64,000 bases of DNA from Bacteroides uniformis (GCA_963641445.1 CAVIBR010000002.1:51656-115655), one strand, 5' to 3'; shown: positions 8,746 to 33,540, counted from the stretch's first letter. Translations and numbers: made by a program. The notes: generated by a model not told the origin, from the sequence alone.

Positions 8746-9189
8746 GGCTAATCCTCGAAATTATTATATTTGCGTAAAATTCGGAATTCAACTCCGATTT
8801 TGCGTAAATTGAATAGCCAAATAATTGAAAAATCATCTAATTAATGGTCAATTCAAAAAATGGTCGAAGAAATATATCAGTATTCATCGAAACTTTTTTG
8901 AATTTTCGACCAAATCGCCAATGCACTGGCGAAATAGTCGAAAAAATTAGTTTTGTGAACTATGTTGACTTGCTATTTTTTAACGATTTCATTGTAAAAA
9001 GCATCTGCAAGCATCAAATTTCTAAGGTAAACATTCCAAGTTTATTATTGCCCAATAGACTTAATTGGTTTGTGATTTTCTACGTAAATCACGTTTGTTT
9101 TAACATAACAGTTTAAATCCGAGTGGGTTTTGCATGGTATTTTTGGAAATATTGATTTTGAATATTTCTAAATCGATAAAAATCGCATT

Positions 9190-10914
9190 TTATTTAACGC
9201 GAATAATGTTATTACCGTAATTGGACGTATCTATTTTGTAATATGTTGCACCCGTTGGAATTGAATCATTTTTGAATGTTATATTTTCATCATACGAATG
9301 AATGTAATCAGGATATGTTTCATCTAACGTTTTCCCGTATATCGAAACATTTGAAAATGAAACGTTTTTCACATAATGTCCTTCATTTGGATAACCTAAT
9401 CTAGTTTCCATTGATCCTGTTACTTTAATTTTTGGATTGTCTATACCAGAAAGAACAAGAACATTTGAAACGTTAACTCCATCAATGTCTCCTAATGAAG
9501 TCTTTTTATGGTTATCGCTCCAAGTTGGACTATAGGAAACATCAAATTCAAAAAGATATGGCGTTCCATCTCCTTTGCCAATGGACGCGTCTTCAATCGT
9601 TATATTTTCATAACGTATATTCCTTATTTTTGCATTGTTTCCATTATGAATGTTTAACACTGGTTTGTGGTATGCGTGCAAAACAGTGATATTCCTAAAA
9701 GAAATATCTTCCATCTTTTCACCTATTGTCTCATATCCAATTTCCATCGATTGAGCTAAATCAGTAACGATCAAACAATCAGAAAAATGAACTCCTGAAG
9801 TAACTCCTTCTTCTTTGTTACGATAATTAACATAATTCTTAACAACTAAAGAATCATCCCATGTACGAAGGAAACAGCCTTCAACATTAACATTCTTAGA
9901 AGACTGGATTGAAATGCCATCACCATTGCTACGGCTAGAAATGACCTTTGTGTTCTTAATTAACAAATCATTGGCAAAATAAATATTAAATGCCCAGCCA
10001 GCTGGATCGATAACTGAGAAATCTTCTAATTTGAAGTTACTACAAAAATTAAAATCTAAAGGAATTGTCGCCGTTCCATCGTCTGGATTTCTTGGAAAAG
10101 AAGATCCATCAATTATTCCTGGACCTTCGATTGAGAAATTACTCGCATCTGTCGCAGTAAATCTTCCACGAATAACCGCTCCATCTTCTAGGTATATATG
10201 ATCATTGGAATGCACGATGATTTCGTTGTTACCAGAAATCCTACTGTCGTTATCTTTTGTATGAATTCCTTTTTTGAAAACAATTTTATTTGTTAAATCT
10301 TCATCTTTTATTTCGTTAACGAATAGGTGTAATGTTCTTTGCTTTGTTTCGATTAAATATTGTCCTGGAGAATCTATAACGAAAGATATGACCCACCTGG
10401 CATGATCAATCTCATAAGCTATATTCTTTCCTAATGGGCGTATAGTTACATCGTTTAATGGATTAAACGCACATTTTAAATAAATCTTCACTTTGCCTTT
10501 GATGGCAATTGTTGAATAAGCGGACATATCACGGACTCCTCCATCCGCTTTCCAAACACGATTCTGATTGATGTTAACTTTATAAATTGGAACTTCTTCT
10601 CCTGCGATATACATCTTCATTCTCGGATATAGTTCCATTCCTTCGACATAATCAGAAAATTTAACCTTATTCGTTTCTTTTGTATCATTCTCATCATATT
10701 CTGATTTGAAATAAGATGGATCAAATTGCTTGAATCCATCTTCATCACGTGGAAAAGAAGATTCCTCACTTGAAGAAATATCAAAAGATGGAGAAGATCG
10801 GTCTTCCGAAATGTTATTAGAGTTAGATGGATCGTTCTTGCATCCAGCAAGAGAAAGTACGAACATAGTTGTTACTAGAGCAACGATTCGCCGTTTTCCT
10901 TTGAAAAGAAACAT
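9190..10914 (-). CDS. Surface lipoprotein with a right-handed beta-helix (pectin-lyase fold) domain, a glycoside-hydrolase-like protein. Paralog of 23030-25690.
   Basis: 574 aa. Signal and lipobox MFLFKGKRRIVALVTTMFVLSLAGCKND. The motif SRSNGDGISIQSSKNVNVEGCFLRTWDDSLVVKNY is nearly identical to ARSNGDGISIQSCSDVEVNGGYVRTWDDSLVVKNS in the 886-aa paralog. It is the last gene of the sugar-utilisation operon. Confidence 0.6.
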   Translation of the reverse strand: MFLFKGKRRIVALVTTMFVLSLAGCKNDPSNSNNISEDRSSPSFDISSSEESSFPRDEDGFKQFDPSYFKSEYDENDTKETNKVKFSDYVEGMELYPRMKMYIAGEEVPIYKVNINQNRVWKADGGVRDMSAYSTIAIKGKVKIYLKCAFNPLNDVTIRPLGKNIAYEIDHARWVISFVIDSPGQYLIETKQRTLHLFVNEIKDEDLTNKIVFKKGIHTKDNDSRISGNNEIIVHSNDHIYLEDGAVIRGRFTATDASNFSIEGPGIIDGSSFPRNPDDGTATIPLDFNFCSNFKLEDFSVIDPAGWAFNIYFANDLLIKNTKVISSRSNGDGISIQSSKNVNVEGCFLRTWDDSLVVKNYVNYRNKEEGVTSGVHFSDCLIVTDLAQSMEIGYETIGEKMEDISFRNITVLHAYHKPVLNIHNGNNAKIRNIRYENITIEDASIGKGDGTPYLFEFDVSYSPTWSDNHKKTSLGDIDGVNVSNVLVLSGIDNPKIKVTGSMETRLGYPNEGHYVKNVSFSNVSIYGKTLDETYPDYIHSYDENITFKNDSIPTGATYYKIDTSNYGNNIIRVK

Positions 10915-12659
10915 ACATTTTCCAAACGGAATGAAACGTTGATTTCTTCCGCTTTCTTGAATCTTCCAAGTCCTTCAGTTGAAATGATTAGGTCATCATC
11001 TTTTCCTGCAATTGAAGCGTATACTAAAGTTTCCTCGCCTAATTGTTCAAAAAGATTTATCTTTGCTTTGAAGCCTTGTTCTTCGTAACGTAAATCGCCA
11101 TTAACGGATATTGCTTTAGGACGGATGCCCATAGTAACGATTTTGTCCAAATAGTTTTCATTGAAGTTTGTCATTCTTTCTTTTGGAAGTTCCATTTCTT
11201 CTTTGCCTAAGAATGAAACGAAATATCTATCGTCTTTCTTGCTTACTTTAGCATCAAAGAAATTCATTTGAGGGGTTCCTATAAATCCAGCGACAAATTG
11301 ATTTTTAGGATTTAAGAATATCTCTTCTGGTGTGCCTATTTGCTGAATTATTCCATCTTTCAAGACAACAATCTTGCTACCCATCGTCATTGCTTCAACT
11401 TGATCGTGAGTAACATAGATAAAGATTGTTTTTAGCTTATCGTGAAGACGGGTTATCTCACTTCTCATTGCAACACGCATCTTTGCATCAAGATTAGAAA
11501 GAGGCTCATCAAGTAAGAATACTTCAGGATCACGAACGATTGCTCTTCCTAAAGCAACTCTTTGTCTTTGGCCACCGGATAAATTAGCAGGTTTTCTATC
11601 AAGATAATCGCTTAAGCCAATCTTTTCTGCGGCTGCTTCAACTTTCTTTTTGATTTCTTCTTTTCTTTGTTTTCTGTACTTAAAATCAAAGAAATGTTTG
11701 AAAGGAATCTTTTCTACTTCAAGAGGAAAAGCAATGTTTTTAAAGACAGTTAAGTGAGGATATAAGGCATAGTTTTGGAAAACCATGGCAATATTACGAT
11801 TCTTCGCTTCTTCGTCAGTAACATCTTTTCCATCAAGATAAATGGATCCTTCTGTGACGTCTTCTAATCCGCCAATCATTCTAAGGACCGTGCTTTTACC
11901 ACAACCAGATGGTCCAACAAAAACAACAAATTCCTCATCATATATGTCTAAATTGAAATCCTTTACTGCCGTAACTCCGTTTGGATATGTCTTATAAATT
12001 GATTGAATTCTTAAACATGGTTCCTTAGAAAAATATTTCAAAATATCAGAAAATTTATTTAGTGGATGATCGGTGAATTCACTATCTGATGCATCGCCAA
12101 TGCCAAAAGAGGTAAAGCCGCCTTTCTTAGCTGCTTCAACACCTGCTTTAGCATCTTCTACGACGCCACATTCGCTTGGATCTAAACCAAGTTTCTTTGC
12201 AGCAAGGAGGAAAACTTCAGGATCTGGTTTTGAATGAGCTATCATGCTTCCATCAACAACTTCATCAAAGAAATTGGCTAAGCCAATTCTTTCAAGAATA
12301 AACGGAGCATTCTTGCTACCGCTTCCTAAAGCAAGTTTGATTCCTTTTTCTCTTAAAGCATTTAATGTAGATAGAACATCTTTATCTACATCATTAGGTG
12401 TTAAGGCATTCAAGGATTCACGGTACATCTCATTCTTTTTCTCACAAAGTTTTTCTTTTTCTTCTTCAAAATATTCCCTTGTGGCTTTCTCTAAAATGAT
12501 TTCTAAAGATGCCATTCTAGAAACGCCACGTAAGCGATTATTCACTTTTTCATCAAAAGGGATATTTTCTTCATCAGCCATCTTTTTCCATGCGGCATAA
12601 TGAAATTTGTCAGTGGAGATAATCACTCCATCTAAATCGAAGATCATTCCTTTAATCAT
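10875..12659 (-). CDS. Fusion protein: N-terminal beta-phosphoglucomutase (HAD superfamily, PgmB-like) fused to a C-terminal MalK/MsmK-like sugar ABC transporter ATPase
   Basis: 594 aa. N-terminal MIKGMIFDLDGVIISTD…SKPDPEVFLLAAKKLGL…VVEDAKAGVEAAKKGGF matches HAD motifs I-IV of beta-PGM. From about aa 215, ...[54 protein letters not shown] and [14 protein letters not shown] form a complete MalK NBD plus C-terminal regulatory domain. There is no stop or frameshift at the junction. RBS GGAGG. Confidence 0.8.
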   Translation of the reverse strand: MIKGMIFDLDGVIISTDKFHYAAWKKMADEENIPFDEKVNNRLRGVSRMASLEIILEKATREYFEEEKEKLCEKKNEMYRESLNALTPNDVDKDVLSTLNALREKGIKLALGSGSKNAPFILERIGLANFFDEVVDGSMIAHSKPDPEVFLLAAKKLGLDPSECGVVEDAKAGVEAAKKGGFTSFGIGDASDSEFTDHPLNKFSDILKYFSKEPCLRIQSIYKTYPNGVTAVKDFNLDIYDEEFVVFVGPSGCGKSTVLRMIGGLEDVTEGSIYLDGKDVTDEEAKNRNIAMVFQNYALYPHLTVFKNIAFPLEVEKIPFKHFFDFKYRKQRKEEIKKKVEAAAEKIGLSDYLDRKPANLSGGQRQRVALGRAIVRDPEVFLLDEPLSNLDAKMRVAMRSEITRLHDKLKTIFIYVTHDQVEAMTMGSKIVVLKDGIIQQIGTPEEIFLNPKNQFVAGFIGTPQMNFFDAKVSKKDDRYFVSFLGKEEMELPKERMTNFNENYLDKIVTMGIRPKAISVNGDLRYEEQGFKAKINLFEQLGEETLVYASIAGKDDDLIISTEGLGRFKKAEEINVSFRLENVCFFSKENGESLL

Positions 12660-14763
12660 TGTTTATTTCCTCCACTTTTGCTTCTTTTGAGCTTACTTTG
12701 ATGCGGTATAACTTATTTCTTGCCTTGATTTTATAACTCAAAGAAGAAATCTCTTTTGGCAATTGATTAGAACAAGATATTTCACCATTATCCGATATTT
12801 TCAAACCTGAAAATCCATATATTGCAGATAGATATGCTCCACCTGCACTTGCTGGATGGGTTCCACCAATATAGATTCCTCCGGCATATAGTTTTTGAGG
12901 ACCATATAAATCAATGGACGCACTCTTTCTAAACATCGAATAAGCGTATCCTCTTTCGCCTATTTCTGTAGCAAGCAAGGAATACATGCTGCTAGATAGA
13001 CTTGATCCATGCTCTGTACGAGGGAAATAATAATCATAATTCGCTTCTTTTATTGACAGAGGGAACTCATCACCTAAAAGCGAAAGCATTGCAGCGACAT
13101 CCGCTTGCTTGATTATTTGCGTTCCTCCTGCAGGACCATCTTTTCCTCCCCAATACTGTCTTGGGTCTTTTAAACGAGACCTAACAGTTTCTAAGGAACA
13201 ATCCTCTTTTTGAAAATAACCTTCAAATTGTTCTATGACACCATTAGAGTTTGGTTTAGGAAGATAAAGATTTTCTAAGAATTCTTCTAGTTTAGAAAGA
13301 ATTCCATTTGAATCTTCAATTAAATCCATGTTGTTTCTTAATGTTTTGATGGTAAAACGTAGAGCGTGTGCGACCATATAATTCGTAAATGCGTTGTCGT
13401 TCACTCTTTCGTGATATTCATCCGGGCCAATAACATCATCGATATGATAAAGGCCGTCTTTTCTTTTCTTCGCATAACTTAAAAAGAACAATGAGCATTG
13501 GCATAAAACATCTAGTGCTCCATCTGCAAAAATCGAATTATCCCCCGTAATAGTTAAGTATTTTTCTATCGCATAAGGAATATCCGCACTTATATGAATC
13601 TGTTTTTCGTTGAAATAGGTTCTAATTGGTTTGCCAGTTTTGTAATCTGTGACGTTGTATTTTGAGCATGCTTCAAGGCCACTTTCTTGGCTTTCCCAGG
13701 AATAGAATGCACCTTTGTAACCAAATTCTTTTGCTTTCGCTTTTGCACCAGGCAAAGTATTTACCCTATACATAATTAAGTTGCGGGCAACCTTTGGTTC
13801 GTTTAGAGCAAAAAATGGTAATAGGAATATTTCAGTATCCCAAAATATTGCACCTTTATAGGTTTGTCCAGAAACTCCACGAGCAGGAATGCTACGTTCT
13901 CTATTCTCATCTCCTAGAATCAATAATTCATATATCGAATACAAAAGTTCTTTTTCTCCATCTTCATCACCAATTAATTCAACTCTTGCTTGATGATATA
14001 AGGAGGAGAATATTTGGACGTGATCTTCTTTTTTGGCTAAGTATCCATCTTCGATTACTTCATTGATTTCTTTTTTAAAATCCGTTTTTGATTCAAAGAT
14101 CAAAGAATAAATACATAGTTCAAAAGTTTCATCTTTATTTAAAAAAACATCTAATTCATAGAAACCATTATTAAATGCTGGATTACCTTTGTTGAAAGAA
14201 TAATTCACTGCTTCAAAGATTGTCTTGTTTTCATTTGTTTTTCCTTCGAATAATAAGAAATTATCTTCCTTTGTTATATTCTTTTCTTTGAAATGAGGGC
14301 CATTAATGTCGTAAATATCTAAATCAAGGCCAAAAACAAAATGATATTTCTTTGATTCTTTGGCTTTGATTCCGATTTTAGCTGCAAGAAGATTATCTTG
14401 CTTCTTTGAGAGGAAACGTTCACTTTCGATGAAATAGGAAGGAAACTCACTTCTTCTTTTTAGGATACCTTCTTCAATATTTAATTCTAGTTCATGTGCT
14501 AACGGATCAATCGAATTAACGGTTTCTTCATTTCCATCTACGAACGTTTTGAAAAAGATTGGATCAGGAAGGTTAAGTGATTCTCTCCATTTATCTTGGT
14601 AACGATCATAGACTCCAACAAGATTGAATCCTTTCATGGAATCCTTGTTTTCTTCTTCTAATACTCCACGATATCCTAGATGCCCATTGCCAATAAGAAG
14701 GCGATTTCCCTCTTCGATTCTACTAGAACGATTGAATCCATGAATAATCAAAGAATCATTCAT
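12652..14763 (-). CDS. Glycoside hydrolase family 65 disaccharide phosphorylase (maltose/kojibiose/nigerose/trehalose phosphorylase family)
   Basis: 703 aa. N-terminal GH65 beta-sandwich, central (alpha/alpha)6 barrel and the conserved ...FPRTEHGSSLSSSMYSLLATE... segment. Sits in tandem with a second GH65 gene and next to the beta-PGM fusion. RBS GGAGA. Confidence 0.85.
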   Translation of the reverse strand: MNDSLIIHGFNRSSRIEEGNRLLIGNGHLGYRGVLEEENKDSMKGFNLVGVYDRYQDKWRESLNLPDPIFFKTFVDGNEETVNSIDPLAHELELNIEEGILKRRSEFPSYFIESERFLSKKQDNLLAAKIGIKAKESKKYHFVFGLDLDIYDINGPHFKEKNITKEDNFLLFEGKTNENKTIFEAVNYSFNKGNPAFNNGFYELDVFLNKDETFELCIYSLIFESKTDFKKEINEVIEDGYLAKKEDHVQIFSSLYHQARVELIGDEDGEKELLYSIYELLILGDENRERSIPARGVSGQTYKGAIFWDTEIFLLPFFALNEPKVARNLIMYRVNTLPGAKAKAKEFGYKGAFYSWESQESGLEACSKYNVTDYKTGKPIRTYFNEKQIHISADIPYAIEKYLTITGDNSIFADGALDVLCQCSLFFLSYAKKRKDGLYHIDDVIGPDEYHERVNDNAFTNYMVAHALRFTIKTLRNNMDLIEDSNGILSKLEEFLENLYLPKPNSNGVIEQFEGYFQKEDCSLETVRSRLKDPRQYWGGKDGPAGGTQIIKQADVAAMLSLLGDEFPLSIKEANYDYYFPRTEHGSSLSSSMYSLLATEIGERGYAYSMFRKSASIDLYGPQKLYAGGIYIGGTHPASAGGAYLSAIYGFSGLKISDNGEISCSNQLPKEISSLSYKIKARNKLYRIKVSSKEAKVEEINND

Positions 14764-17024
14764 CTTTTTATCTCCATCTTTTCTGAAACAGTAACATCTT
14801 GGCCGTATATATTCATCGAAACTGGTTCGCCTAAGTTTTCAATGCATAGTGAAGATGGATAGATGTCCAACCGTAAAGGTGAATTATGATAATTTAGTTT
14901 CACTGAATAATGTTTCCAACGACTTGGCAAGGTTGGATTGATTAGAAGTTTTTCACGATCACTTCTTAAGCCTAAATAACCATAAACGATATTCATCCAT
15001 GCTGCGGCAATGCTAGTCATATGGAGCCCTTCTGATGTATTGCGGTTGTAATCATCTAAATCTAGGCGTGTTGCAAAGCCAAAGAAATCAAGCGCTTCTT
15101 TTTCTTTGCCTAATTCTTGAGCGAGTATGCTATGAACGCTTGGAGAAAGAGAAGATTCGTGGATGCAACGTGGCTCGTAATATTCATAATTGGCTTTCTT
15201 TTCTTTTAAGGAGAAATCCTGGTTGTAAAGGAAGATGAACATCAAAACGTCTGGTTGCTTAATCATGTCGTTACGATAAATTCGATCATATGACCAATGG
15301 CTATATAAAGGGAAATCGGTGACAGGAATCTTATCTACGTCAATATGCGGAAGGTCATAGAACCCTGCATGTTGTTCGTATAGCTTTGTTTTTGGGTCGT
15401 AGAGAATTAGCATTTTATTCATTGCTTCAACCATTTCTTGAAGTTTTCTTGAATCAAAACCTGTCTCTTTCATTGTTTCTTCTTTTTCAATACGTTTGTC
15501 ATTTAATACGGACAGGGTGTATTCAAAAGTTTTCTTTGCCATGATATTGGTATACATATTGTGATTTACCATGACTTCAAATTCGTCTGGGCCCATTACT
15601 CCGTAATAACTGAAATGTTCTTTGGTTTGATTCCATTGCCCGCGGGTAAGTAAGAACTTATCAATTTCTAGTAACATTTTTAGTCCGTACTTATTCATGA
15701 AATCCCAATCTTGATAAAGATTCATGTAATGGAAAATCGCATATGCGACAGCGGTTGTTGGTTGAATTTGCGTTGAGGCGTGCTGCCAAAGAGTACATGC
15801 TTCCTCGCCATTTCTTGTAGCGATAGGGAAACACGCTCCTTCACAATCAAGGTCTTTTGCTCTTTCTTTTGCTTTTTCTAAGGTGTTATAACGGAATAGC
15901 AAGAGATCCCTAGCTGCTTTCTGGTTGGTGAAAAGATAATAAGGAAGGCAATATGTTTCGCTATCCCAGAATGCGTGGCCGCTATAAGCTTCACCAGTTA
16001 GTCCTTTTGCACCAATATTGTTATCAGGAGCAAGTCCGTTATAGGCTTGTTGGAGATTGAAAAGGCAGAAACGGATGCCTTGTTGATCTTCATCATCGCC
16101 ATCGATTTCAATATCGCTTTCTTTGATTCTTTCAGAGAAAAACGAACTATTTTCTTCAAAAAGGCCTGCAAAACCCTTCTCTTTTAATAAAGAGAGATTC
16201 TTTGAAGCACTCTCAATCATTTCTTTTTCATGCGTATCGCTCTTTTTATCAATGAGATTTTCGACATAACGGGCGAAAGTAATTTCCTTTCCTTCTGTTA
16301 GAGAAAAATCATAATTCAACGTTATTGATTTATCTTCAATCTTTTTTGATGATTGCGAAAACGGTGAATCAACCTTCATCACGCTAACGATTGCCTGATG
16401 AGTTGAAATTGTCTTCATGAAAAGTCCGTATTCATCGTTATTATCGATAATCTTGCCTAAGTTCCAATAACAATGATTTCCCCAATGAAGAATTCCTCCA
16501 TCGATAGTTAATGAAAGATGAACATCTGCTTCCTTATCAGATTTGAAGGAGATTCTTTGAATGGCGTTTTCTGACGATTTCATGCCAAGAAGTCTTTCGA
16601 ATGTCATTTCTACTTTCTTTCCACTTAAGGTGTTCCAAACGAAATTTCTTTTTAATAATCCGTTACGGAAATCAAGTGATCTAACAAAATCCGATTGGGA
16701 TATGATGGCTAAATCGAGTTTTTCACCATCAATTATGATTTCACATTTCAAATAGTTTGGAGAATTGATTGTAAAATGACTTTTTTTGGCAATTCCTTTA
16801 TAGGCGTTAGGGATTTCTTCAAGAGAATATTCAAAAATTCCGTTATAATACGTGCCAATTAATGAAGGTAAGGTTACTCCTTCTTCAAGGAAGCCACGAA
16901 CCCCGCTATATTCATTTCCTAAAGAAAAGATAGATTCGCTAACTTGGTTACGATCTTTGTGGAAGCCTTTTTCGACAACTCTCCATGGTTCTACTTCTAA
17001 GTATTTGTTACGAATTTTAGCCAT
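14760..17024 (-). CDS. Glycoside hydrolase family 65 disaccharide phosphorylase (second paralog)
   Basis: 754 aa with GH65 architecture. ...YYEPRCIHESSLSPSVHSILAQELG... matches the GH65 catalytic region. RBS AAGGAG. Confidence 0.85.
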   Translation of the reverse strand: MAKIRNKYLEVEPWRVVEKGFHKDRNQVSESIFSLGNEYSGVRGFLEEGVTLPSLIGTYYNGIFEYSLEEIPNAYKGIAKKSHFTINSPNYLKCEIIIDGEKLDLAIISQSDFVRSLDFRNGLLKRNFVWNTLSGKKVEMTFERLLGMKSSENAIQRISFKSDKEADVHLSLTIDGGILHWGNHCYWNLGKIIDNNDEYGLFMKTISTHQAIVSVMKVDSPFSQSSKKIEDKSITLNYDFSLTEGKEITFARYVENLIDKKSDTHEKEMIESASKNLSLLKEKGFAGLFEENSSFFSERIKESDIEIDGDDEDQQGIRFCLFNLQQAYNGLAPDNNIGAKGLTGEAYSGHAFWDSETYCLPYYLFTNQKAARDLLLFRYNTLEKAKERAKDLDCEGACFPIATRNGEEACTLWQHASTQIQPTTAVAYAIFHYMNLYQDWDFMNKYGLKMLLEIDKFLLTRGQWNQTKEHFSYYGVMGPDEFEVMVNHNMYTNIMAKKTFEYTLSVLNDKRIEKEETMKETGFDSRKLQEMVEAMNKMLILYDPKTKLYEQHAGFYDLPHIDVDKIPVTDFPLYSHWSYDRIYRNDMIKQPDVLMFIFLYNQDFSLKEKKANYEYYEPRCIHESSLSPSVHSILAQELGKEKEALDFFGFATRLDLDDYNRNTSEGLHMTSIAAAWMNIVYGYLGLRSDREKLLINPTLPSRWKHYSVKLNYHNSPLRLDIYPSSLCIENLGEPVSMNIYGQDVTVSEKMEIKR

Positions 17025-17027
17025 AAT

Positions 17028-17951
17028 TTACTCCTTGCTGCCTTTATTTGCTCCCACACCCATGATTTGACGTTGGAAGATAAGGAAAATGATTACTTGA
17101 GGGATAATTGATAAAACTAATAACATTAGGAATTCTTCAGGTTTTAAAATATCTCCAGCATTGCCAATGTCATAGATTCCAACCATTAATGTTTTGAGTT
17201 TGTTATTTTGCAAGACTAGATATGGCAAGAGGAAATCACTATATGATGCAGTCATAGCAAAAATAGCAACAATGCCAATGATTGGTTTTGATAAAGGCAA
17301 GATAATTCTAATAAATATTTGGAAGCGATCCGCTCCATCCATATTGGCTGCTTCGACAAGAGATTGAGGAAGTCTTGAGAAATAATCTTTAAATAAGGTG
17401 TAATAATAGGCGTTCGCGCCAAAAGAAAGCCAAAGAGAGAGGAACATCAAATAAGACTCGCTATCGGCTTGTAAAAGGCCAATCGCATTGATTTCCTTTA
17501 TAAGAGGGAAAATATTCAACACGGCTGGAATCATGTAGCCAAGAAAAACTAACTTATCGATGATTTTATATCCGGCTGGTTTTATTACTGCAATCGCATA
17601 AGCAAGCAAACTATTGAAGAATACCGCACATATAACCGCGCCAATAACATAAACGAAAGTATTTAAATAATAACGAGTGAAATCGATTTTCTCCCAAATG
17701 GTTGCAATCTTTCCCCAATCCCAAACTTTTGGCCAGAAAGTATATGTCGAACTATAAATCTCACCAGAACTTTTCAAAGCGGACGCAATCAAGTAAACAA
17801 TAGGAAAAAGAGCAATGAAAGAAAATAAGCAAAGGAAGAAAACGATCATTCCATATCCTGCTTTATGCCAAGGGCTACGATAATCAGCAAAATTGAGGAA
17901 ACCGCCTCTTTTATCTTTTAGGTGAGGAAATGCAAATTTACGTTTTTCCAT
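17028..17951 (-). CDS. Carbohydrate ABC transporter permease (LplC/MalG-like)
   Basis: 307 aa, 6 TM, EAA loop EAANMDGADRFQIFIRIILPLSKP. RBS GGAGGGG. Confidence 0.85.
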   Translation of the reverse strand: MEKRKFAFPHLKDKRGGFLNFADYRSPWHKAGYGMIVFFLCLFSFIALFPIVYLIASALKSSGEIYSSTYTFWPKVWDWGKIATIWEKIDFTRYYLNTFVYVIGAVICAVFFNSLLAYAIAVIKPAGYKIIDKLVFLGYMIPAVLNIFPLIKEINAIGLLQADSESYLMFLSLWLSFGANAYYYTLFKDYFSRLPQSLVEAANMDGADRFQIFIRIILPLSKPIIGIVAIFAMTASYSDFLLPYLVLQNNKLKTLMVGIYDIGNAGDILKPEEFLMLLVLSIIPQVIIFLIFQRQIMGVGANKGSKE

Positions 17952-17952
17952 A

Positions 17953-18870
17953 CTATTTCCCCTCCTTTTTCTTTAAGAATCGATCAAGAAGAGCATATCC
18001 AATGGTGAATAAAATGATGATTCCACCTAAAACCATCGCACATGCCGCACTCTTTCCGTATTCAAAATCTTCAAATGCATATAAATACGAAAGTAACATC
18101 AAAGACATCGAACTATCTAAAGGACCGCCTTTTGGTCCGATGATGAGTGGTTCATAGAAGACTTGGAAAACGCTAATAATTTGCAGGACTAATAAAGTTA
18201 GCATTGTTCCACGCAAAGCTGGAATGGTAATTCTCCAGAACCTTTGCCAAGAGCTAGCGCCATCACTTCTAGCCGCTTCATACATCGAATCATCAATAGA
18301 TTGAAAAGCGCTAAGGTAGATAAGAGCAGTACTTCCAGCTCCTTTCCAAGTCATTGCTAAAACAATAAGAGGAATAATTAAGGAAGTCGATCCTTTCCAT
18401 GGATGGGATTCAAATCCTAGCTTTGTGATAATAACGTTGAATAAATCCGTGTTAGAATCGCCATACATAGAATTAAAAAGGAAGACAACAGCCATTCCAC
18501 TAATCATGCACGGAAGATAAAGAACGATACGGAAAAATCCTTTCGCATGAATGACTTCGCTAAGAAGGAAACCTAAAATAACTGGAACAAGATATCCAAT
18601 AACAAGTGACCAAAGGATGTAAAGGAAAGTATTCTTTAACGCACTAAGGAAAGTTGGATCTTCAAATATCGCCTGAAAATTAGCAAATCCGACAAATTTA
18701 GCATCTTCATATCCATCTTGAAAAGAAAGAATGATATTACGTCCCATCGGATACCAAACAAAGAAAGCAAATAAAGTAAGAGGAATGATCATGAAAGCCC
18801 ACCCTACAAGATTCTTCTTAAGGGTTGATTTCCAATTCTTTTTTCGTTTTATAAGTGCTTTCTTTTTCAT
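17953..18870 (-). CDS. Carbohydrate ABC transporter permease (LplB/MalF-like)
   Basis: 305 aa, EAA loop EAARSDGASSWQRFWRITIPALRG. Lies 1 bp from the downstream permease. Confidence 0.85.
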   Translation of the reverse strand: MKKKALIKRKKNWKSTLKKNLVGWAFMIIPLTLFAFFVWYPMGRNIILSFQDGYEDAKFVGFANFQAIFEDPTFLSALKNTFLYILWSLVIGYLVPVILGFLLSEVIHAKGFFRIVLYLPCMISGMAVVFLFNSMYGDSNTDLFNVIITKLGFESHPWKGSTSLIIPLIVLAMTWKGAGSTALIYLSAFQSIDDSMYEAARSDGASSWQRFWRITIPALRGTMLTLLVLQIISVFQVFYEPLIIGPKGGPLDSSMSLMLLSYLYAFEDFEYGKSAACAMVLGGIIILFTIGYALLDRFLKKKEGK

Positions 18871-18885
18871 AAATAAAAGGCTCGC

Positions 18886-20298
18886 TTATTTGTTTACAGT
18901 CTTATCAAGTTCTTTTTGAAGTTGTTGGGATGCAGTTTGCAAGAGAGCTTTGCAATTAGCGTTTTCAAGGTTAACGAAAACACTTTGAATTACAGTATCT
19001 AATGCTTCATACATCTCTTGTGCGGCATATGGTTCTTCACTCTTTTTGTTTGCTTGAATCGTATCAAAGAATGGTGAGTAGTCTTTCATATCAACAGTGA
19101 TGTATTCTTTTTCTAATTTATTAGCTTCAGCTAGATATGTTTCATCTTTCCAAGGCATGATTGAAGGCAAAATAGGTTGATTTTTTGTTTTAGCTACTTC
19201 GTATCCCTCTTTTTTGGCTTTGAAATTATTTTCGCTTGTTGAAGGAGAACGACCAATATAATCAAAGAATTTAAGAATTCCTTCGACTTTCTCATCAGAA
19301 ACGTTCTTAGTGAAAACATAAGGTGTTCCGCCATAAAGAGAATAGTGATCTTTGTTATTTCCAGTTGGCATAGGAACGAAGGCTAAATCGCTCATTTCTA
19401 CGCTGCCTTGAAGTTTGGCTTGTTGGAGAACATCGCTTCCAACAACTGCCATAGCAACCTTATCACCAATATTGCCATACCAATCGTTATAAACAGTTCC
19501 AACCGCATCTTGCATTAGGCCATCAACTTTCATCTTTTTGACCCATTCGAGAGCGTTAACTGCTTCATTTGAGTCGAGATTCGCCGCCCATTTTCCGTTT
19601 TTTTGAATTTCTAGCTCTGCACCAAAATTCCAGGCGATATTGCTAAAAACCCAACCGCCGTTCTTATTAGCGCTATACATTAAGAAGCCTTTTGCGGAGT
19701 CTTCGTTTTCGTTAACGATCGTATTGCTGAAATCGTAAACCTGTTCCCATGTTGTTGGATAAGCAGGCGTTCCATCTTCGTTATAGATGTTATAAGTTCC
19801 ATCTTCGTTTTCTGGCAATAAGCCATTTTCACCGAGGATTCGCTTGTTAATCAATAAGCCAAGACCATACCCATCACGTGGAACTCCGTATATTTCGTTA
19901 TCGAATGTTAATGTGGATTTCATCTCATCGTCCATTTTCACATCCCAGCCAATATCTTTAAGTTGAGCCGTTATTGGACGGATGATTTTCTTTTCCATCA
20001 ATTTTTCTGGCTCGGTGAACCATGTTTGCCAAACATCAGGAAGGCTTCCCGTGCTTGCTTTTTGGTTAACTGTCTCCGTGCTATAGGTGTATGGCATTCC
20101 TTTGATCGTGTATTTTGGATTTTCTTCTTCAAAACGTTTTGCCCACGTTTCATACATAGCCACGTCTTGTTTTGATGCGCTTTCAGGCCAAAAACCAATT
20201 TTCAAAACAATTTTATCGCCATCGCCTCCTTCACCGCATGAAGCAAGCAAGATACAAGACAATGCTGATAAGATTTTTAAGTTTAAGGTTTTTTTCAT
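18886..20298 (-). CDS. Sugar ABC transporter substrate-binding lipoprotein. Start revised to the ATG at 20296-20298.
   Basis: The ORF track begins at a TTG (20313). The in-frame ATG five codons downstream yields MKKTLNLKILSALSCILLASCGEG, a lipoprotein signal with lipobox. It is preceded by GGAGG plus 8 nt. The body resembles a family-1 extracellular solute-binding protein. Confidence 0.8.
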   Translation of the reverse strand: MKKTLNLKILSALSCILLASCGEGGDGDKIVLKIGFWPESASKQDVAMYETWAKRFEEENPKYTIKGMPYTYSTETVNQKASTGSLPDVWQTWFTEPEKLMEKKIIRPITAQLKDIGWDVKMDDEMKSTLTFDNEIYGVPRDGYGLGLLINKRILGENGLLPENEDGTYNIYNEDGTPAYPTTWEQVYDFSNTIVNENEDSAKGFLMYSANKNGGWVFSNIAWNFGAELEIQKNGKWAANLDSNEAVNALEWVKKMKVDGLMQDAVGTVYNDWYGNIGDKVAMAVVGSDVLQQAKLQGSVEMSDLAFVPMPTGNNKDHYSLYGGTPYVFTKNVSDEKVEGILKFFDYIGRSPSTSENNFKAKKEGYEVAKTKNQPILPSIMPWKDETYLAEANKLEKEYITVDMKDYSPFFDTIQANKKSEEPYAAQEMYEALDTVIQSVFVNLENANCKALLQTASQQLQKELDKTVNK

Positions 20299-20315
20299 AT
20301 TTGAATCCTCCAAAG

Positions 20316-20388: not shown

Positions 20389-23004
20389 TCAAGCCCAAGT
20401 TTCAACATAGGTTGCTAATGCTGTTGAATACGGGATTTCTTCGCTATAAGCAGTTGCTGCGCCAAGAGTGAGTTTCCAAGCTGCATCTTGTGAGTTATGC
20501 AAATGAACTTCTCCATCTTTTTCGGTAGCAATTCCAGCTGCTTTTAAGTCAATAACTACTGTTACAGGGTCTTTTGTTAACTTATCGGTAAGAGTAATTG
20601 GGCTGCCATCAACGTTCTTAAGAAGCTCTGCATTATCCTTCGCCCAGATTGTCTTTCCTGCTGCTTCAACACGGAATTGAGATAAGTCAGAGGAAGAATC
20701 TTCACTAGACATAGCGATGTAGATCTTGTCGGTATGAGCAGTTGCTTTCCAGCCTCCGCAATATCCATATCCAGCAGCAGCTTCAACATTATTTGCACCC
20801 ATAGCATCAAATGAAATGCCTTTAGCTGCAGCAAAGATATTTGTAAAAGTGACTGTACCCGCACCATCTCCGCCAACATGTACGTGGGTAAATCCATCTC
20901 CTTCTGTCGGGAAGGTGCTGATATCCACATAATATGTTGTATCTTCTTCAGGGATAATGGTGTCTTTGTTTACTTTGCTTCCTTTCGTATCGTAAACATC
21001 AACTTCGTCTTTATTAATCCATTTTGTCTCACCATTGAGTTGGAAGCGGAATGTTGCAAATGTCGCGTCTTTTCCATCTCCTTTTACGGTGAAACCAACG
21101 TATTTAGCATCTAATGCTTTACCGACGTTACCAGCATATTTATAACCAGCTAGATCAATATCTGGTGTTGTATCAGTCCATCCATCAAGGACTTTTGCTG
21201 CACTAAATGCATTGGCATAGAAGATTGATGAGATGGAAATGGCTTTTTCACCAGAGTAGTAGATGTTGATTAAATCGTCAGCTTGAACGTTATGGTAATT
21301 TAGATCAACGACGTACCACGTGTATCCATCTTCTGTTAGATATGGGCTTGCAAAATTAGCATCGCCATAAGTCTTGACTCCTTCCATTGCCATAGCGGAG
21401 TTAAACCAAATTGCAGTTGCTGAACCCATTTCGAAACGGAAGGTAGATAAATCTGCGCCTTCTTCTCCTTTGATTGAGAAAACGATGTATTGAGCATCAG
21501 CAAATGTATGGGTTGAGCCAATTGTTACTTCATCATATCCTTCAGTTACGCCAGGAAGATGGAGAGCTCCTCCACTTGTAGAAATATTTGCTCCATTGGA
21601 ATAGGAAACGAATCCGTTAATGCCTGCGGCAATATTCTTTTCGTTAGCAGCTGAAGCATCCCAATCTGAGTCTAAAGAAGTAATATCACGTTCGAAGTTA
21701 TCAAAAGTTACCGCACTTTCAGCGTTGATATTTGGATATTTCTTATCAAGAACAGGTTCTTCAAAACTGGTTCCAAAAACATTTGCAATCATCAATTCAT
21801 TCTTGCCATCGTTCTTGATTGTGACGGTTTTGATATTTGCATCAGCTGGACCGGCAAATGTTGAAAGATCAATTGCAATAGAAGCAAAGATACCATCAAC
21901 AGTATTAACGACTGCATTATCGGTTTTTGCTTTAAGATCTTTGAAAGCTAATGCTTTTACGGTGTTAGCTGCATCATCATATGCGACTTCAACGCTACTT
22001 CCACTCATATCGCCAAGTGCTTCAAAGACAATATGTGAATATCCTCTTTGTTTTTCGCTTAAGACTGGTGTGGTGTATTTCTTGCCATTAGAGATTTCAA
22101 CGCCTTTACGGACTAAAACTGCATTCGCGCAATCTGTTGGACCCCAATATACGTTTGGATTTCCTGTAATTGTCGAACGGTTGAAATCGTCAATAATGAC
22201 TGTTGAATCGCCTTTGCTATAGGAAACTTCAGCAATTTCAATAACCGCAGACACTTCGATTCCACTCTTAACATATAAATGGAAACCTGTTGCTTCGGAA
22301 AGAACCTTTAATTGAGTTTCTGGGAAGAGGGTGTCTTCATCTCCGACCGATTCCGAAACCGAAACGGAAATGGTTTGGAATTCGTTTGTTAATTCTGGGA
22401 GAGCTTCTTGCTCACTATCAAGAGCATCGCCAAGATTAATTGGATACACGTGTCCGCTATTATCATCGCTTGGACGGATGCCAAGAATAAGATCTTTGAT
22501 GGAAAGCTTTCCGCTAGCAACGCGCATCTTGAAGTTGATTGATGATTGGCCAATAAGAGTTTTATCTCCGCCAAATGTCGCACTTGCCATCTTATATATG
22601 GCTGAATCAGGCGTGATTTGGAAGCTTTCTAAGTTGCTATCAACAACTTCTCTTAAATATGCCTTATGAGTTACTCCGTCAGTAGTTCCAAGAAGAGATT
22701 CGCCAGAGAAATCCTCGATGATCGTGTCGAAACGTTCGTCGTAATTACGAGTAATAGCCCCTTCCGCTAAAGTCTTATTAAGCCCTGCTCTATGAGTGAC
22801 TGGATCAGTTTTTGAACTACTCGTATCTTGTTGTTCAGATGAACTTATTGGAGTTTCGCTTGAAGATGCTGGAGGTGGAGTTACAGATGAGGTTGGAGAG
22901 TTTGATGAGGAAGATTGATCAGGTTTATTATCCGGACTGCAAGCAGCCAAGATCATGCCAACGCTAAATGGCAACATGACCAACAATAATTTTTTCCCTT
23001 TCAT
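20389..23004 (-). CDS. Large surface lipoprotein (871 aa) with an S/T/P-rich linker, unknown function (likely glycan-binding or surface component of the utilisation locus)
   Basis: MKGKKLLLVMLPFSVGMILAACSPDNKPDQSSSSNSPTSSVTPPPASSSETPISSSEQQDTSSSK... is a lipobox followed by a low-complexity linker, then about 750 aa rich in predicted beta structure. RBS AGGA. Co-oriented and adjacent to the beta-helix/discoidin lipoprotein. Confidence 0.55.
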   Translation of the reverse strand: MKGKKLLLVMLPFSVGMILAACSPDNKPDQSSSSNSPTSSVTPPPASSSETPISSSEQQDTSSSKTDPVTHRAGLNKTLAEGAITRNYDERFDTIIEDFSGESLLGTTDGVTHKAYLREVVDSNLESFQITPDSAIYKMASATFGGDKTLIGQSSINFKMRVASGKLSIKDLILGIRPSDDNSGHVYPINLGDALDSEQEALPELTNEFQTISVSVSESVGDEDTLFPETQLKVLSEATGFHLYVKSGIEVSAVIEIAEVSYSKGDSTVIIDDFNRSTITGNPNVYWGPTDCANAVLVRKGVEISNGKKYTTPVLSEKQRGYSHIVFEALGDMSGSSVEVAYDDAANTVKALAFKDLKAKTDNAVVNTVDGIFASIAIDLSTFAGPADANIKTVTIKNDGKNELMIANVFGTSFEEPVLDKKYPNINAESAVTFDNFERDITSLDSDWDASAANEKNIAAGINGFVSYSNGANISTSGGALHLPGVTEGYDEVTIGSTHTFADAQYIVFSIKGEEGADLSTFRFEMGSATAIWFNSAMAMEGVKTYGDANFASPYLTEDGYTWYVVDLNYHNVQADDLINIYYSGEKAISISSIFYANAFSAAKVLDGWTDTTPDIDLAGYKYAGNVGKALDAKYVGFTVKGDGKDATFATFRFQLNGETKWINKDEVDVYDTKGSKVNKDTIIPEEDTTYYVDISTFPTEGDGFTHVHVGGDGAGTVTFTNIFAAAKGISFDAMGANNVEAAAGYGYCGGWKATAHTDKIYIAMSSEDSSSDLSQFRVEAAGKTIWAKDNAELLKNVDGSPITLTDKLTKDPVTVVIDLKAAGIATEKDGEVHLHNSQDAAWKLTLGAATAYSEEIPYSTALATYVETWA

Positions 23005-23029
23005 TTTATTTTTCCTTTCTGAAAGTTAT

Positions 23030-32821: not shown

Positions 32822-32826
32822 AAACC

Positions 32827-33525: not shown

Positions 33526-33540
33526 TCAGGAGTCTCTTTT

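What the first reader, a model, noticed from the sequence alone, without database searches (positions are those of the whole stretch)
10875..12659. In-frame fusion of beta-phosphoglucomutase to a MalK-type ABC ATPase
The N-terminal 215 aa have all HAD/beta-PGM motifs (DLDGV nucleophile, S/T motif II, K motif III, EDAKAG-type motif IV). The join to a complete MalK-like NBD has no linker stop or frameshift. The MalK part begins at its normal second or third residue (…LRIQSIYKTYPNG…). It sits directly downstream of two GH65 phosphorylases, whose product (beta-glucose-1-phosphate) is the beta-PGM substrate. It is also the only ATPase in the operon for the two permeases at 17028-18870. The fusion would tether the first cytoplasmic metabolic step to the importer. 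I do not recognise this as a standard architecture, although MalK-type ATPases with accessory domains are common in Mollicutes.
Basis: seen in the sequence. Interest (0 to 1): 0.65.

Follow-up and report, generated by a model that had tools for sequence, protein, structure and literature searches.

The report
Sugar enzyme fused to transporter motor
One real, conserved gene in a group of uncultured gut bacteria joins an ordinary sugar-phosphate enzyme (beta-phosphoglucomutase) to the ATP-driven motor subunit of the sugar importer encoded next to it. Close relatives keep the two as separate neighbouring genes only one stop codon apart, so it is a tidy gene fusion and not a new kind of machine.

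Summary
Window 10875-12659 (minus strand) is one 594-aa ORF. Residues 1-210 are a complete beta-phosphoglucomutase (TIGR01990, above cutoff). A 5-residue linker follows, then a complete MalK/MsmX-type ABC ATPase with its regulatory domain.

It is not an assembly artefact. At least 120 protein clusters (56-92% identical) and 13 species-representative genomes carry the same fusion. Wherever flanks were read, 14 loci in all, it sits in the same operon: binding protein, two permeases, two GH65 phosphorylases, fusion, usually then a GH28-like lipoprotein. All catalytic residues of both halves are invariant in 74 aligned homologues, and dN/dS is 0.007-0.09.

The fusion is confined to one lineage, probably RFN20/CAG-826 Bacilli. 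Related metagenomic contigs have the same operon unfused. In two of them pgmB and malK are adjacent and in the same frame, separated by one or two stop codons and a ribosome-binding site. E. coli ycjT-ycjU-ycjV has the same order as separate genes.

The beta-PGM domain carries no fusion-specific conserved residues. The best reading is a neighbouring-gene ("Rosetta-stone") fusion giving a bifunctional subunit. Channelling or allosteric coupling is untested, and the split relatives show the link is dispensable. I found no paper describing it. Interest is modest.

The parts
10875..12659 (-). Fused gene pgmB-malK: 594 aa plus stop
   Evidence: ORF list and translation. Two-domain hits in Pfam and NCBIfam. 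The exact protein is present in public collections.
12030..12659 (-). Beta-phosphoglucomutase domain, aa 1-210 (HAD core plus cap, including the normal C-terminal helix)
   Evidence: TIGR01990 scores 238.7 bits against a cutoff of 189.4. It aligns to 3NAS/1LVH with all catalytic residues. Those residues are invariant in 74 homologues. It is 59% identical to the stand-alone 211-aa PgmB of L083, which ends at the equivalent of aa 210.
12015..12029 (-). Junction/linker, aa 211-215 (SKEPC)
   Evidence: Junction sequence has no stop or frameshift. Across homologues this stretch varies by 0-12 residues, and aa 189-215 are only 34% identical. It corresponds to the stop, ribosome-binding site and ATG region of the split operons.
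11280..12014 (-). ABC nucleotide-binding domain, aa 216-460 (MalK/MsmX/UgpC type), with a 13-aa insert in the helical subdomain
   Evidence: PF00005. UgpC and MalK models match from profile positions 4-5. PDB 7X0Q and 6YIR (MsmX) at E of about 1e-107 or lower. Foldseek TM-score (target) 0.85-0.91. The insert is visible against YcjV and is shared with the split MalK of L087.
10875..11279 (-). MalK-type C-terminal regulatory (OB/TOBE-like) domain, aa 461-594, plus stop
   Evidence: PF17912 OB_MalK. Full-length alignment to MalK-type PDB chains.
12652..14763 (-). GH65 phosphorylase homologue b (703 aa)
   Evidence: Glyco_hydro_65N/m. Best PDB matches are 4KTP and 3WIQ kojibiose phosphorylase. Syntenic in all fused loci.
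14760..17024 (-). GH65 phosphorylase homologue a (754 aa)
   Evidence: Glyco_hydro_65N/m/C. 923 bits to PDB 6W0P, deposited as 'kojibiose phosphorylase'. 27% identical to E. coli YcjT.
17028..18870 (-). Two ABC permease genes (307 and 305 aa)
   Evidence: BPD_transp_1 in both. Syntenic.
18886..20313 (-). Substrate-binding lipoprotein (475 aa), divergent
   Evidence: No Pfam hit of its own. It is 45% identical over its full length to the L082 protein, which carries SBP_bac_1/8. Lipobox LLASC.
20389..25690 (-). Two large surface lipoproteins: 871 aa with no family, and 886 aa GH28-like with F5/8-type C domains. Accessory parts of the locus.
   Evidence: The 871-aa protein is syntenic in the fused loci.
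25816..26853 (-). LacI-family regulator at the head of the locus
   Evidence: LacI and Peripla_BP_3.
9190..10914 (-). GH28-like lipoprotein (574 aa), last gene of the operon. It overlaps the 3' end of the fusion by 40 nt.
   Evidence: Glyco_hydro_28. Only weak PDB matches. Present downstream of the fusion, or of the split malK, in 10 of the 13 fused loci and in L087.
9183..9202 (-). Terminator-like hairpin plus T-run at the end of the operon

Best explanation
This is a genuine neighbouring-gene ('Rosetta-stone') fusion. In an alpha-glucoside (kojibiose-type) utilisation operon of uncultured, probably wall-less gut Bacilli (likely RFN20/CAG-826), the beta-phosphoglucomutase gene pgmB lay directly upstream of the operon's own MalK/MsmX-type ATPase gene. 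The two were in the same reading frame, separated only by a stop codon and a short ribosome-binding-site spacer. Loss of the stop produced one 594-aa polypeptide.

Both halves keep their ordinary jobs:
- The C-terminal 379 residues form the nucleotide-binding subunit. It would sit as a dimer under the two permeases and power uptake of the glucoside delivered by the lipoprotein binding protein.
- The two soluble GH65 phosphorylases split the imported glucoside with phosphate into glucose (or an acceptor) and beta-glucose-1-phosphate.
- The N-terminal 210 residues convert beta-G1P to glucose-6-phosphate for glycolysis.

The consequences of the fusion would be obligatory co-expression, a fixed ratio of two mutase domains per transporter, and placement of the mutase at the membrane.

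Shown here: the architecture, its conservation, purifying selection on both halves, the operon context, and the existence of the split forms. Inferred: both catalytic activities, the substrate class, the stoichiometry, and the direction of the event (stop loss, as opposed to later fission).
For: 1. One ORF holds two complete domains, each matching its family over full length.
2. The fusion is present in at least 120 protein clusters at 90% identity (56-92% identical, 586-603 aa apart from one 572-aa entry). It is present in 13 species-representative genomes, always behind the GH65 genes, with the full binding-protein, permease and GH65 order upstream wherever the contig reaches that far. The most divergent member, P0121, has the same context.
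3. D8, D10, T16, H20, R48, S51, K75, S113, K116, N117, K144, E168, D169 and all ABC motifs are invariant in 74 sequences.
4. dN/dS between the window and L001: beta-PGM 0.054, linker 0.088, NBD 0.007, regulatory domain 0.041.
5. Split forms of the same operon exist:
   - L087: perm-perm-GH65-GH65-pgmB(212 aa)-TAG-GAGGTGAAAAAT-ATG-malK(441 aa)-GH28-like. The two genes are in frame, and this MalK shares the IPFKHFF..KYRK insert.
   - L083: pgmB-TAATAA-AGGAGG-ATG-malK, in frame, each part 59% identical to the window protein.
   - L085: pgmB and malK separated by the GH28-like gene.
6. E. coli K-12 has ycjT (kojibiose phosphorylase), ycjU (beta-PGM) and ycjV (ABC ATPase) in the same order. The fusion is 42% identical to YcjU and 52% to YcjV.
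7. Only one position is conserved in fused but not in stand-alone beta-PGMs: L86 against M. The domain is an ordinary beta-PGM.
8. The linker is short and variable in length and sequence.
9. The AlphaFold model has pLDDT 90.9 and pTM 0.75 with no disordered segment, and its C-terminal MalK part superposes on solved MalK-type chains; the beta-PGM part was not compared structurally.
Against: - No enzymatic, transport or proteomic data exist. Neither activity nor the existence of the 67-kDa product is shown.
- The direction of the event is not resolved. In neighbour-joining trees the split L083 pair falls inside or near the fused clade. The beta-PGM domain tree does not recover the fused proteins as one clade (0 of 40 bootstraps). 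Repeated fusion or later fission therefore cannot be excluded.
- P0121 groups apart from the other fused proteins in the MalK tree.
- Retention of the fusion down to 49% identity could mean it gives an advantage beyond co-expression.
- The GH65 enzymes are assigned as phosphorylases by homology only.
Confidence: 0.8

Rival explanations
1. Functional coupling. The fusion exists because the beta-PGM domain talks to the motor. One version is a sensor: cap closure on beta-G1P or G6P, passed through the short linker to strand 1 and the A-loop Tyr225, would tune ATP binding and give product feedback on uptake. Another version is a scaffold that recruits the GH65 phosphorylases into a membrane-bound metabolon.
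For: - The fusion is retained across a family spanning 49-92% identity.
- The linker is very short, so the mutase must sit against the NBD, only 9-10 residues from the A-loop tyrosine.
- The AlphaFold model is compact, with pTM 0.75 and high pLDDT through the junction.
- Accessory regulatory domains on ABC importer ATPases are an established theme (my own knowledge: MalK/EIIA-Glc, MetN, ModC, OpuA CBS domains).
Against: - Relatives work with split genes, even non-adjacent ones.
- No fusion-specific conserved residues in the beta-PGM domain mark an interface.
- Linker length and sequence are not conserved.
- Beta-PGM does not act on the transported molecule itself.
Confidence: 0.12
2. The fused ATPase is not the energiser of this transporter. 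The separate MalK-type ATPase at 5415-7133 would serve as a shared 'multitask' ATPase (MsmX-like), and the fused NBD would have another role or be redundant.
For: - A second MalK-type ATPase is encoded 3.7 kb downstream on the same strand, 46% identical over the aligned region.
- In Bacillus and Streptococcus, one MsmX/MsmK serves several CUT1 importers (my own knowledge; the closest PDB hits are MsmX and Clo1313_2554).
Against: - Most forms of the operon read (fused, split-adjacent, split non-adjacent) carry their own malK; the one variant read without one (L089) continues into a GH2 and an MFS transporter.
- The NBD is the most strongly constrained part of the protein (dN/dS 0.007) and all its motifs are intact.
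- The second ATPase lies behind a terminator-like site and an unrelated AAA_14/DUF4143 gene.
Confidence: 0.05
3. Assembly or sequencing artefact: a lost stop codon or an indel merging two real genes in this one assembly.
For: None beyond the general possibility. Split in-frame versions exist that differ from a fusion by a single stop codon.
Against: - The same continuous ORF is found in independent assemblies from many samples and sources: at least 120 clusters and 13 species representatives.
- Linkers diverge in sequence and length but are always open.
- There is no long homopolymer at the junction.
Confidence: 0.01
4. The N-terminal domain is a decayed or repurposed HAD domain (a pseudo-enzyme or a simple sugar-phosphate phosphatase), not a working beta-PGM.
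For: HAD phosphatases and beta-PGMs are close relatives. Activity was not measured.
Against: - It scores above the trusted cutoff of the beta-PGM equivalog model.
- Every catalytic and cap residue of L. lactis beta-PGM is present and invariant.
- 66 positions are at least 90% conserved in both fused and stand-alone beta-PGMs, and dN/dS is 0.054.
- No other beta-PGM gene is seen in this operon, although two GH65 phosphorylase homologues are.
Confidence: 0.02

Closest known systems
E. coli K-12 ycj cluster: ycjN-O-P (ABC binding protein and permeases), ycjT (kojibiose phosphorylase, GH65), ycjU (beta-phosphoglucomutase), ycjV (ABC ATPase, a pseudogene in K-12)
   Same: Same functional set and the same local order GH65, then beta-PGM, then MalK-type ATPase. 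The fusion is 42% identical to YcjU and 52% to YcjV.
   Different: - ycjU and ycjV are separate genes, 13 nt apart and in different frames.
- There is only one GH65.
- Extra dehydrogenase and epimerase genes are present.
- GH65a is only 27% identical to YcjT.
Unfused versions of the same operon in related uncultured Bacilli (loci L087, L083, L085)
   Same: - Same gene set and order (permeases, two GH65, pgmB, malK, GH28-like lipoprotein).
- Same MalK insert IPFKHFF..KYRK.
- 51-59% identity to each half of the fusion.
   Different: - pgmB (211-212 aa) and malK (365-441 aa) are separate.
- In L087 and L083 they are in frame, and only a stop codon (TAG or TAATAA), a ribosome-binding site and an ATG divide them.
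- In L085 the GH28-like gene lies between them.
MsmX (B. subtilis, PDB 6YIR), Clo1313_2554 (C. thermocellum, 7X0Q) and MalK (E. coli): CUT1-family ABC importer ATPases
   Same: Same NBD plus C-terminal regulatory-domain fold, about 40-49% identity, Foldseek TM-score (target) 0.85-0.91. All motifs are present.
   Different: - None has an N-terminal enzyme domain.
- The fusion is below the MalK equivalog cutoff (375 against 568 bits) and marginally below the UgpC subfamily cutoff (427 against 432 bits).
- It has a 13-aa insert in the helical subdomain.
Lactococcus lactis beta-phosphoglucomutase PgmB (PDB 1LVH and many others) and B. subtilis-type beta-PGM (3NAS)
   Same: Same HAD core and cap and the same catalytic residues. 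E-values 4e-44 to 2e-46 over the whole domain.
   Different: Those are stand-alone soluble proteins of 221-233 aa. Here the C-terminal helix runs straight into the ABC domain.
ABC subunits carrying accessory domains (OpuA CBS, MetN C2, ModC TOBE, peptidase domain of PCAT exporters) and bifunctional HAD fusions (Acinetobacter MtlD, PDB 7OCN)
   Same: The general theme: an extra domain is covalently attached to an ABC subunit, or a HAD domain is fused to the enzyme of a neighbouring pathway step (7OCN appears among the HAD hits; PCAT appears in the listing). The remaining examples are from my own knowledge.
   Different: In those cases the accessory domain is regulatory or acts on the transported substrate itself. 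Here it is a housekeeping isomerase acting two steps after transport, and no regulatory link has been shown.

Membership tests
Beta-phosphoglucomutase (EC 5.4.2.6; HAD superfamily subfamily IA; NCBIfam TIGR01990) | Scores above the trusted cutoff of the equivalog model over its full length | tested here: met
   238.7 bits against a cutoff of 189.4; aa 2-188 match profile positions 1-187 of 187.
Beta-phosphoglucomutase (EC 5.4.2.6; HAD superfamily subfamily IA; NCBIfam TIGR01990) | HAD motifs I-IV: DxD nucleophile and acid/base, Ser/Thr, Lys, Glu-Asp for Mg2+ | tested here: met
   D8/D10, S113, K144 and E168/D169 align to D8/D10, S114, K145 and E169/D170 of 1LVH. They are invariant in 74 homologues.
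Beta-phosphoglucomutase (EC 5.4.2.6; HAD superfamily subfamily IA; NCBIfam TIGR01990) | Helical cap with the sugar-phosphate binding residues (H20, G46, R49, S52, K76 in L. lactis numbering) | tested here: met
   H20, G45, R48, S51 and K75 are present and invariant. The model shows the helical cap.
Beta-phosphoglucomutase (EC 5.4.2.6; HAD superfamily subfamily IA; NCBIfam TIGR01990) | Catalyses beta-G1P to G6P via beta-G1,6-bisphosphate | not testable with these tools
   Needs an enzyme assay.
CUT1-type ABC importer ATPase (MalK/MsmX/UgpC group) | ABC NBD with A-loop, Walker A, Q-loop, LSGGQ signature, Walker B, D-loop and H-loop | tested here: met
   Y225, G249-T257, Q295, L360-Q364, D384-E385, SNLD and H418 are all present and invariant. 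PF00005 at 3.8e-36.
CUT1-type ABC importer ATPase (MalK/MsmX/UgpC group) | C-terminal MalK-type regulatory (OB/TOBE) domain | tested here: met
   PF17912 at aa 461-516. Full-length structural match to MalK, MsmX and SugC with TM-score (target) 0.84-0.91.
CUT1-type ABC importer ATPase (MalK/MsmX/UgpC group) | Encoded with two BPD_transp_1 permeases and an extracellular binding protein | tested here: met
   Permeases at 17028-18870 and binding lipoprotein at 18886-20313 are in the same operon. Synteny holds in 13 genomes.
CUT1-type ABC importer ATPase (MalK/MsmX/UgpC group) | Reaches the curated score of a named NCBIfam model (MalK equivalog NF008233, UgpC subfamily NF008653) | tested here: not met
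   MalK: 374.9 against 568 bits. UgpC: 427.4 against 432 bits. It belongs to the broad group but is not an orthologue of E. coli MalK or UgpC.
CUT1-type ABC importer ATPase (MalK/MsmX/UgpC group) | Energises uptake by ATP hydrolysis in complex with the permeases | not testable with these tools
   Needs reconstitution or genetics.
Shared 'multitask' ATPase of the MsmX/MsmK kind | One ATPase gene, usually unlinked, serving several CUT1 permease pairs | tested here: inconclusive
   The fused gene is always operon-linked, which points to a dedicated ATPase. A second, unlinked MalK-type gene (5415-7133) and another permease pair (1208-3063) lie in the window. Which ATPase serves which permeases cannot be decided from sequence.
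Transport metabolon / substrate-channelling fusion | The enzyme acts directly on the transported molecule or on the product of the adjacent active site, with a conserved physical interface | tested here: not met
   Beta-PGM's substrate is made by the separate GH65 enzymes, not by the transporter (pathway logic). There are no fusion-specific conserved residues, the linker is variable, and split relatives exist. Physical interaction itself was not testable.

The most novel reading that the evidence does not exclude
The covalent link is adaptive because it builds a membrane-anchored catabolic unit. In this reading, two beta-PGM domains flank the NBD dimer, dock the GH65 phosphorylases and/or sense beta-G1P or G6P. 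Uptake and phosphorolytic breakdown of the glucoside would then be kinetically or allosterically coupled. That would make it a natural enzyme-ABC-importer 'transport metabolon', with split relatives available as built-in controls.
Probability: 0.12. Interest if true: 0.65.

Novelty: new variant of a known kind. Interest (0 to 1): 0.35.

Why it matters
A metabolic enzyme fused to the motor subunit of an ABC importer is an unusual domain combination, and I found no paper that describes this one. Pipelines annotate it either as 'beta-phosphoglucomutase' or as 'ABC transporter ATP-binding protein', and each label hides half of the protein.

Practical value:
1. Annotation and metabolic reconstruction. 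Genomes of this uncultured gut lineage would otherwise appear to lack either the operon's ATPase or its beta-PGM.
2. It is a clean natural Rosetta-stone pair. Fused, split-adjacent (one stop codon away) and split non-adjacent versions of the same operon all exist. That set could be used to test whether tethering an enzyme to a transporter changes flux.
3. It links beta-PGM functionally to a kojibiose-type GH65 locus in wall-less gut Bacilli.

It does not reveal a new mechanism.

Tried and rejected
- Assembly artefact: rejected on conservation across independent assemblies and on the junction sequence.
- Reverse-order or other beta-PGM/MalK fusions: I checked eight of the long (563-849 aa) MalK-type representatives from the exhaustive search, chosen mainly for extra matched stretches. 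They carry only ABC, OB_MalK and TOBE domains plus unassigned C-terminal extensions, with no HAD domain. Only P0049, P0121 and the fragment P0132 are fused.
- A solved structure spanning both domains: none by sequence or by fold. The AFDB library was not available, so UniProt-wide architecture could not be surveyed by structure.
- Literature: five searches (beta-PGM with ABC fusion; phosphoglucomutase with MsmK; ycjU/ycjV; NBD fused to a metabolic enzyme; transport metabolon) found nothing on this fusion.
- Origin by phylogeny:
  - The MalK-domain neighbour-joining tree keeps the fused proteins together, except P0121, but nests the split L083 protein among them.
  - The beta-PGM-domain tree with 120 stand-alone sequences is unresolved.
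  - A first bootstrap run timed out.
  - Single versus multiple origin, and fusion versus fission, are left open.
- L065 (Erysipelotrichaceae) has GH65 and pgmB near a MalK gene but in a different order, so it is not a precursor state.
- Internal translation start for a separate MalK: there is no in-frame ATG or GTG at the junction, and the only TTG (Leu207) lacks a ribosome-binding site. Rejected.
- Fusion-specific residues in the beta-PGM domain that might mark an interface: only L86 against M.
- dN/dS beyond the closest pair: synonymous sites are saturated, so only window versus L001 is usable.
- Substrate identity from the GH28-like lipoproteins: only weak matches to GH28 and pectate-lyase-fold proteins. 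Not pursued.

Full report
**1. What is there**

The finding's coordinates are exact, but the gene is on the minus strand. Window 10875..12659 is one 594-aa ORF with an ATG start. A GGAGGA ribosome-binding site lies about 8 nt upstream, and the start overlaps the stop of the upstream GH65 gene by 8 nt.

Pfam finds HAD_2/Hydrolase at aa 2-186, ABC_tran at 233-387 and OB_MalK at 461-516. NCBIfam places aa 2-188 in the beta-phosphoglucomutase equivalog TIGR01990 (238.7 bits, cutoff 189.4). It places aa 216-591 in the UgpC/MalK group, starting at profile positions 4-5.

Aligned with L. lactis beta-PGM (1LVH) and 3NAS, the N-terminal part has these residues:
- the nucleophile and acid/base pair D8 and D10;
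- cap residues H20, G45, R48 and S51;
- S113, K116, N117, K144 and the Mg2+ pair E168/D169.

The stand-alone PgmB of a relative ends at the equivalent of residue 210. So the mutase is complete, only about five residues (SKEPC) act as a linker, and the ATPase starts at what is residue 4 of unfused homologues. The ATPase has every ABC motif and a MalK-type regulatory domain. Its best solved relatives are C. thermocellum Clo1313_2554 and B. subtilis MsmX. No stop, frameshift or long homopolymer lies at the junction.

**2. Surroundings**

On the same strand the locus reads as follows:

| Coordinates | Gene |
|---|---|
| 25816-26853 | LacI regulator |
| 23030-25690 | 886-aa GH28-like lipoprotein with F5/8-type C domains |
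| 20389-23004 | 871-aa lipoprotein with no family |
| 18886-20313 | divergent substrate-binding lipoprotein |
| 17028-18870 | two permeases |
| 14760-17024 | GH65a |
| 12652-14763 | GH65b |
| 10875-12659 | the fusion |
| 9190-10914 | GH28-like lipoprotein |

GH65a scores 923 bits against PDB 6W0P, deposited as a kojibiose phosphorylase. GH65b is closest to 4KTP and to the kojibiose phosphorylase 3WIQ. Both are therefore probably phosphorylases that release beta-G1P, though this rests on homology only.

A terminator-like hairpin follows the last gene (9183-9202). A promoter-like site precedes the next gene, an AAA_14/DUF4143 ATPase. A second MalK-type ATPase (5415-7133) is 46% identical over the aligned region and has an N-terminal extension and large insertions. 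It therefore lies in another transcription unit.

The window is chromosomal, carrying gyrB, gyrA, serS and a recF-like gene.

**3. Is the fusion real and conserved?**

Yes.
- A search of 5.8 billion proteins returned at least 120 clusters (at 90% identity) of full-length fused homologues. They are 56-92% identical and 586-603 aa long, apart from one 572-aa entry.
- The window's exact protein is itself in public collections. Examples with accessions are CDD93930.1 (Coprobacillus sp. CAG:826), HBB05635.1 and MBR0294482.1. They are named 'beta-phosphoglucomutase' or 'CUT1 ABC ATP-binding protein'.
- Thirteen species-representative genomes carry the fusion at 65-95% identity. It always follows the GH65 genes, the full lipoprotein, binding-protein, permease and GH65 order is seen upstream wherever the contig reaches that far, and the GH28-like gene follows in ten of them.
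- In an exhaustive HMMER scan of 1.84 billion 50%-identity representatives, only two full-length clusters (P0049, P0121) and one fragment are fused. Every other top hit begins at query residue 216.

The fusion is thus confined to one family. The most divergent member, P0121 (49% identical), has the same operon context.

Record titles point to the uncultured order RFN20, family CAG-826. These bacteria are described as small-genome gut organisms predicted to lack peptidoglycan and spores. The titles are Candidatus Enteromonas, Coprobacillus sp. CAG:826 and 'Bacilli bacterium'. This placement is an inference from homologue names.

**4. Are both halves alive?**

In a 74-sequence alignment all catalytic residues of both domains are invariant. 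Mean identity to the window protein by region:

| Region | Mean identity |
|---|---|
| beta-PGM | 64% |
| NBD | 77% |
| regulatory domain | 51% |
| tail and linker | 34% |

For the closest pair (window and L001), dN/dS is 0.054 for beta-PGM, 0.088 for the linker, 0.007 for the NBD and 0.041 for the regulatory domain.

The AlphaFold2 model has pLDDT 90.9 and pTM 0.75 with no disordered stretch, and pLDDT of about 88 across the junction. Its MalK part superposes on solved MalK-type chains with a TM-score of 0.85-0.91, and no solved chain spans both parts.

**5. Where it came from**

The closest unfused MalK representative (P0122, 59% identical) sits on contig L083, directly behind a separate 211-aa pgmB that is also 59% identical to the window's domain. 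The junction there reads ...ISDILKHI-TAA-TAA-AGGAGG-ACTGCTTAC-ATG-MAFIELKHVKKIYPNG, and both ORFs are in the same frame.

Contig L087 has the whole operon: permease, permease, GH65 (758 aa), GH65 (692 aa), pgmB (212 aa), malK (441 aa), GH28-like (589 aa). Its junction reads ...ILKYID-TAG-GAGGTGAAAAAT-ATG..., again in frame. Its MalK shares the characteristic IPFKHFF..KYRK insert. That arrangement is one stop codon away from the fusion.

A third form (L085, a 431-kb Bacilli contig) has pgmB and malK separated by the GH28-like gene. E. coli K-12 has ycjT (kojibiose phosphorylase), ycjU (beta-PGM) and ycjV (ATPase) in the same order as separate genes.

This is the classic signature of a Rosetta-stone fusion of operon neighbours. 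The direction and number of events are not resolved:
- The split L083 pair nests in or near the fused clade in neighbour-joining trees.
- The 210-residue beta-PGM tree gives no support for one fused clade.

**6. How it most likely works**

Shown:
- a single polypeptide with two intact, selected domains in a conserved glucoside-utilisation operon;
- split equivalents in relatives.

Inferred:
- The C-terminal part dimerises beneath the two permeases and drives uptake.
- The soluble GH65 enzymes phosphorolyse the imported alpha-glucoside.
- The N-terminal domains, two per transporter, convert beta-G1P to G6P.
- The fusion guarantees co-expression and a fixed ratio, and puts the mutase at the membrane.

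Direct channelling from the importer is not possible, because beta-PGM's substrate is produced by separate enzymes.

A comparison of 74 fused with 120 stand-alone beta-PGMs found only one position conserved in the fused set alone (L86 against M). Sixty-six positions are at least 90% conserved in both sets. The linker varies by 0-12 residues. These results, and the viable split forms, argue against an evolved interface or allosteric role. I keep that as the main rival at 0.12, because the tether is very short and attaches 9-10 residues from the A-loop tyrosine. Long retention of the fusion also leaves the possibility open.

**7. Comparison, novelty and verdict**

Each half is an ordinary member of a well-known family: a beta-PGM by every sequence criterion, and a CUT1-group ATPase that is not an orthologue of E. 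coli MalK or UgpC. What is new is their covalent combination. Literature searches found no description of it, and databases label only one half.

I rate it a new variant of a known kind. It is real, conserved and useful for annotation, and it offers a natural fused/split comparison, but it is mechanistically unsurprising. Interest is 0.35.

Noticed in passing
window 5415-7133 (-): A second MalK-type ATPase (572 aa). It has a Lys/Glu-rich N-terminal extension of about 55 aa, an insertion of about 65-80 aa in the helical subdomain (the same site as the 13-aa insert of the fused protein) and a further insertion in the regulatory domain. The signature reads LSGGQCQR. It is followed by an RDD-family membrane protein (4027-5406).
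   Followed up: partly
search result (e.g. P0143, 849 aa; P0124, 699 aa; P0138, 744 aa): Many MalK-type ATPase representatives are 560-870 aa long. The MalK part occupies residues 4 to about 370, and C-terminal extensions of 200-480 residues have no Pfam family. What these extensions are is unknown.
   Followed up: partly
window 7516-8745 (-), 27198-28109 (+), 29366-30592 (+): Three copies (one truncated) of an AAA_14/DUF4143 ATPase gene are scattered around the sugar locus. One sits between the operon and the second MalK gene.
   Followed up: no
window 31181-37158 (+): A possible defence island. It holds an SPFH/Band-7 protein with a C-terminal zinc-ribbon-like hit (546 aa), a 242-aa protein with no family, and a 1205-aa protein with a TIR domain and DUF6273. 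A predicted AAA-ATPase/PD-(D/E)XK protein follows at 37222-38883 (-).
   Followed up: no
window 20389-23004 (-): An 871-aa lipoprotein with a Ser/Pro/Thr-rich N-terminal linker and no detectable family, even at E = 1. It is conserved in position in front of the binding protein in all fused loci that reach it (35-88% identity). It may be a novel glycan-binding or glycan-degrading surface protein.
   Followed up: partly
loci L001, L002, L005, L007, L010 (record titles): The contigs carrying this low-GC Bacilli operon belong to 'cleanbin' assemblies titled Alistipes communis, Faecalibacterium prausnitzii, Alistipes shahii, Roseburia hominis and Prevotella sp. CAG:755. These organism names do not fit the content and look like mislabelled or contaminated bins.
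   Followed up: no
window 50526-53405 (-): A 959-aa protein with an N-terminal ABC ATPase domain fused to an FtsX-like permease (MacB-type fused architecture). This is another ABC fusion in the same window.
   Followed up: no
window 10875-10914 and 12652-12659: Gene packing is very tight. The GH28-like gene starts 40 nt inside the 3' end of the fusion gene, and the fusion starts 8 nt inside GH65b. GH65a and GH65b overlap by 4 nt. Such packing makes stop-loss fusions easy.
   Followed up: partly
window 1208-3063 (-) and 3161-4030 (+): Another pair of CUT1-type permease genes sits next to an AraC-family regulator, with no ATPase gene beside them inside the window. They are candidates to be served by the stand-alone MalK-type ATPase at 5415-7133.
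   Followed up: no
L001 (95% identical fusion), downstream of 11782: In the closest relative, the GH28-like gene that follows the fusion in the window and in most other loci gave no tblastn hit within 10 kb downstream. This suggests a recent rearrangement or loss at the operon's end.
   Followed up: no
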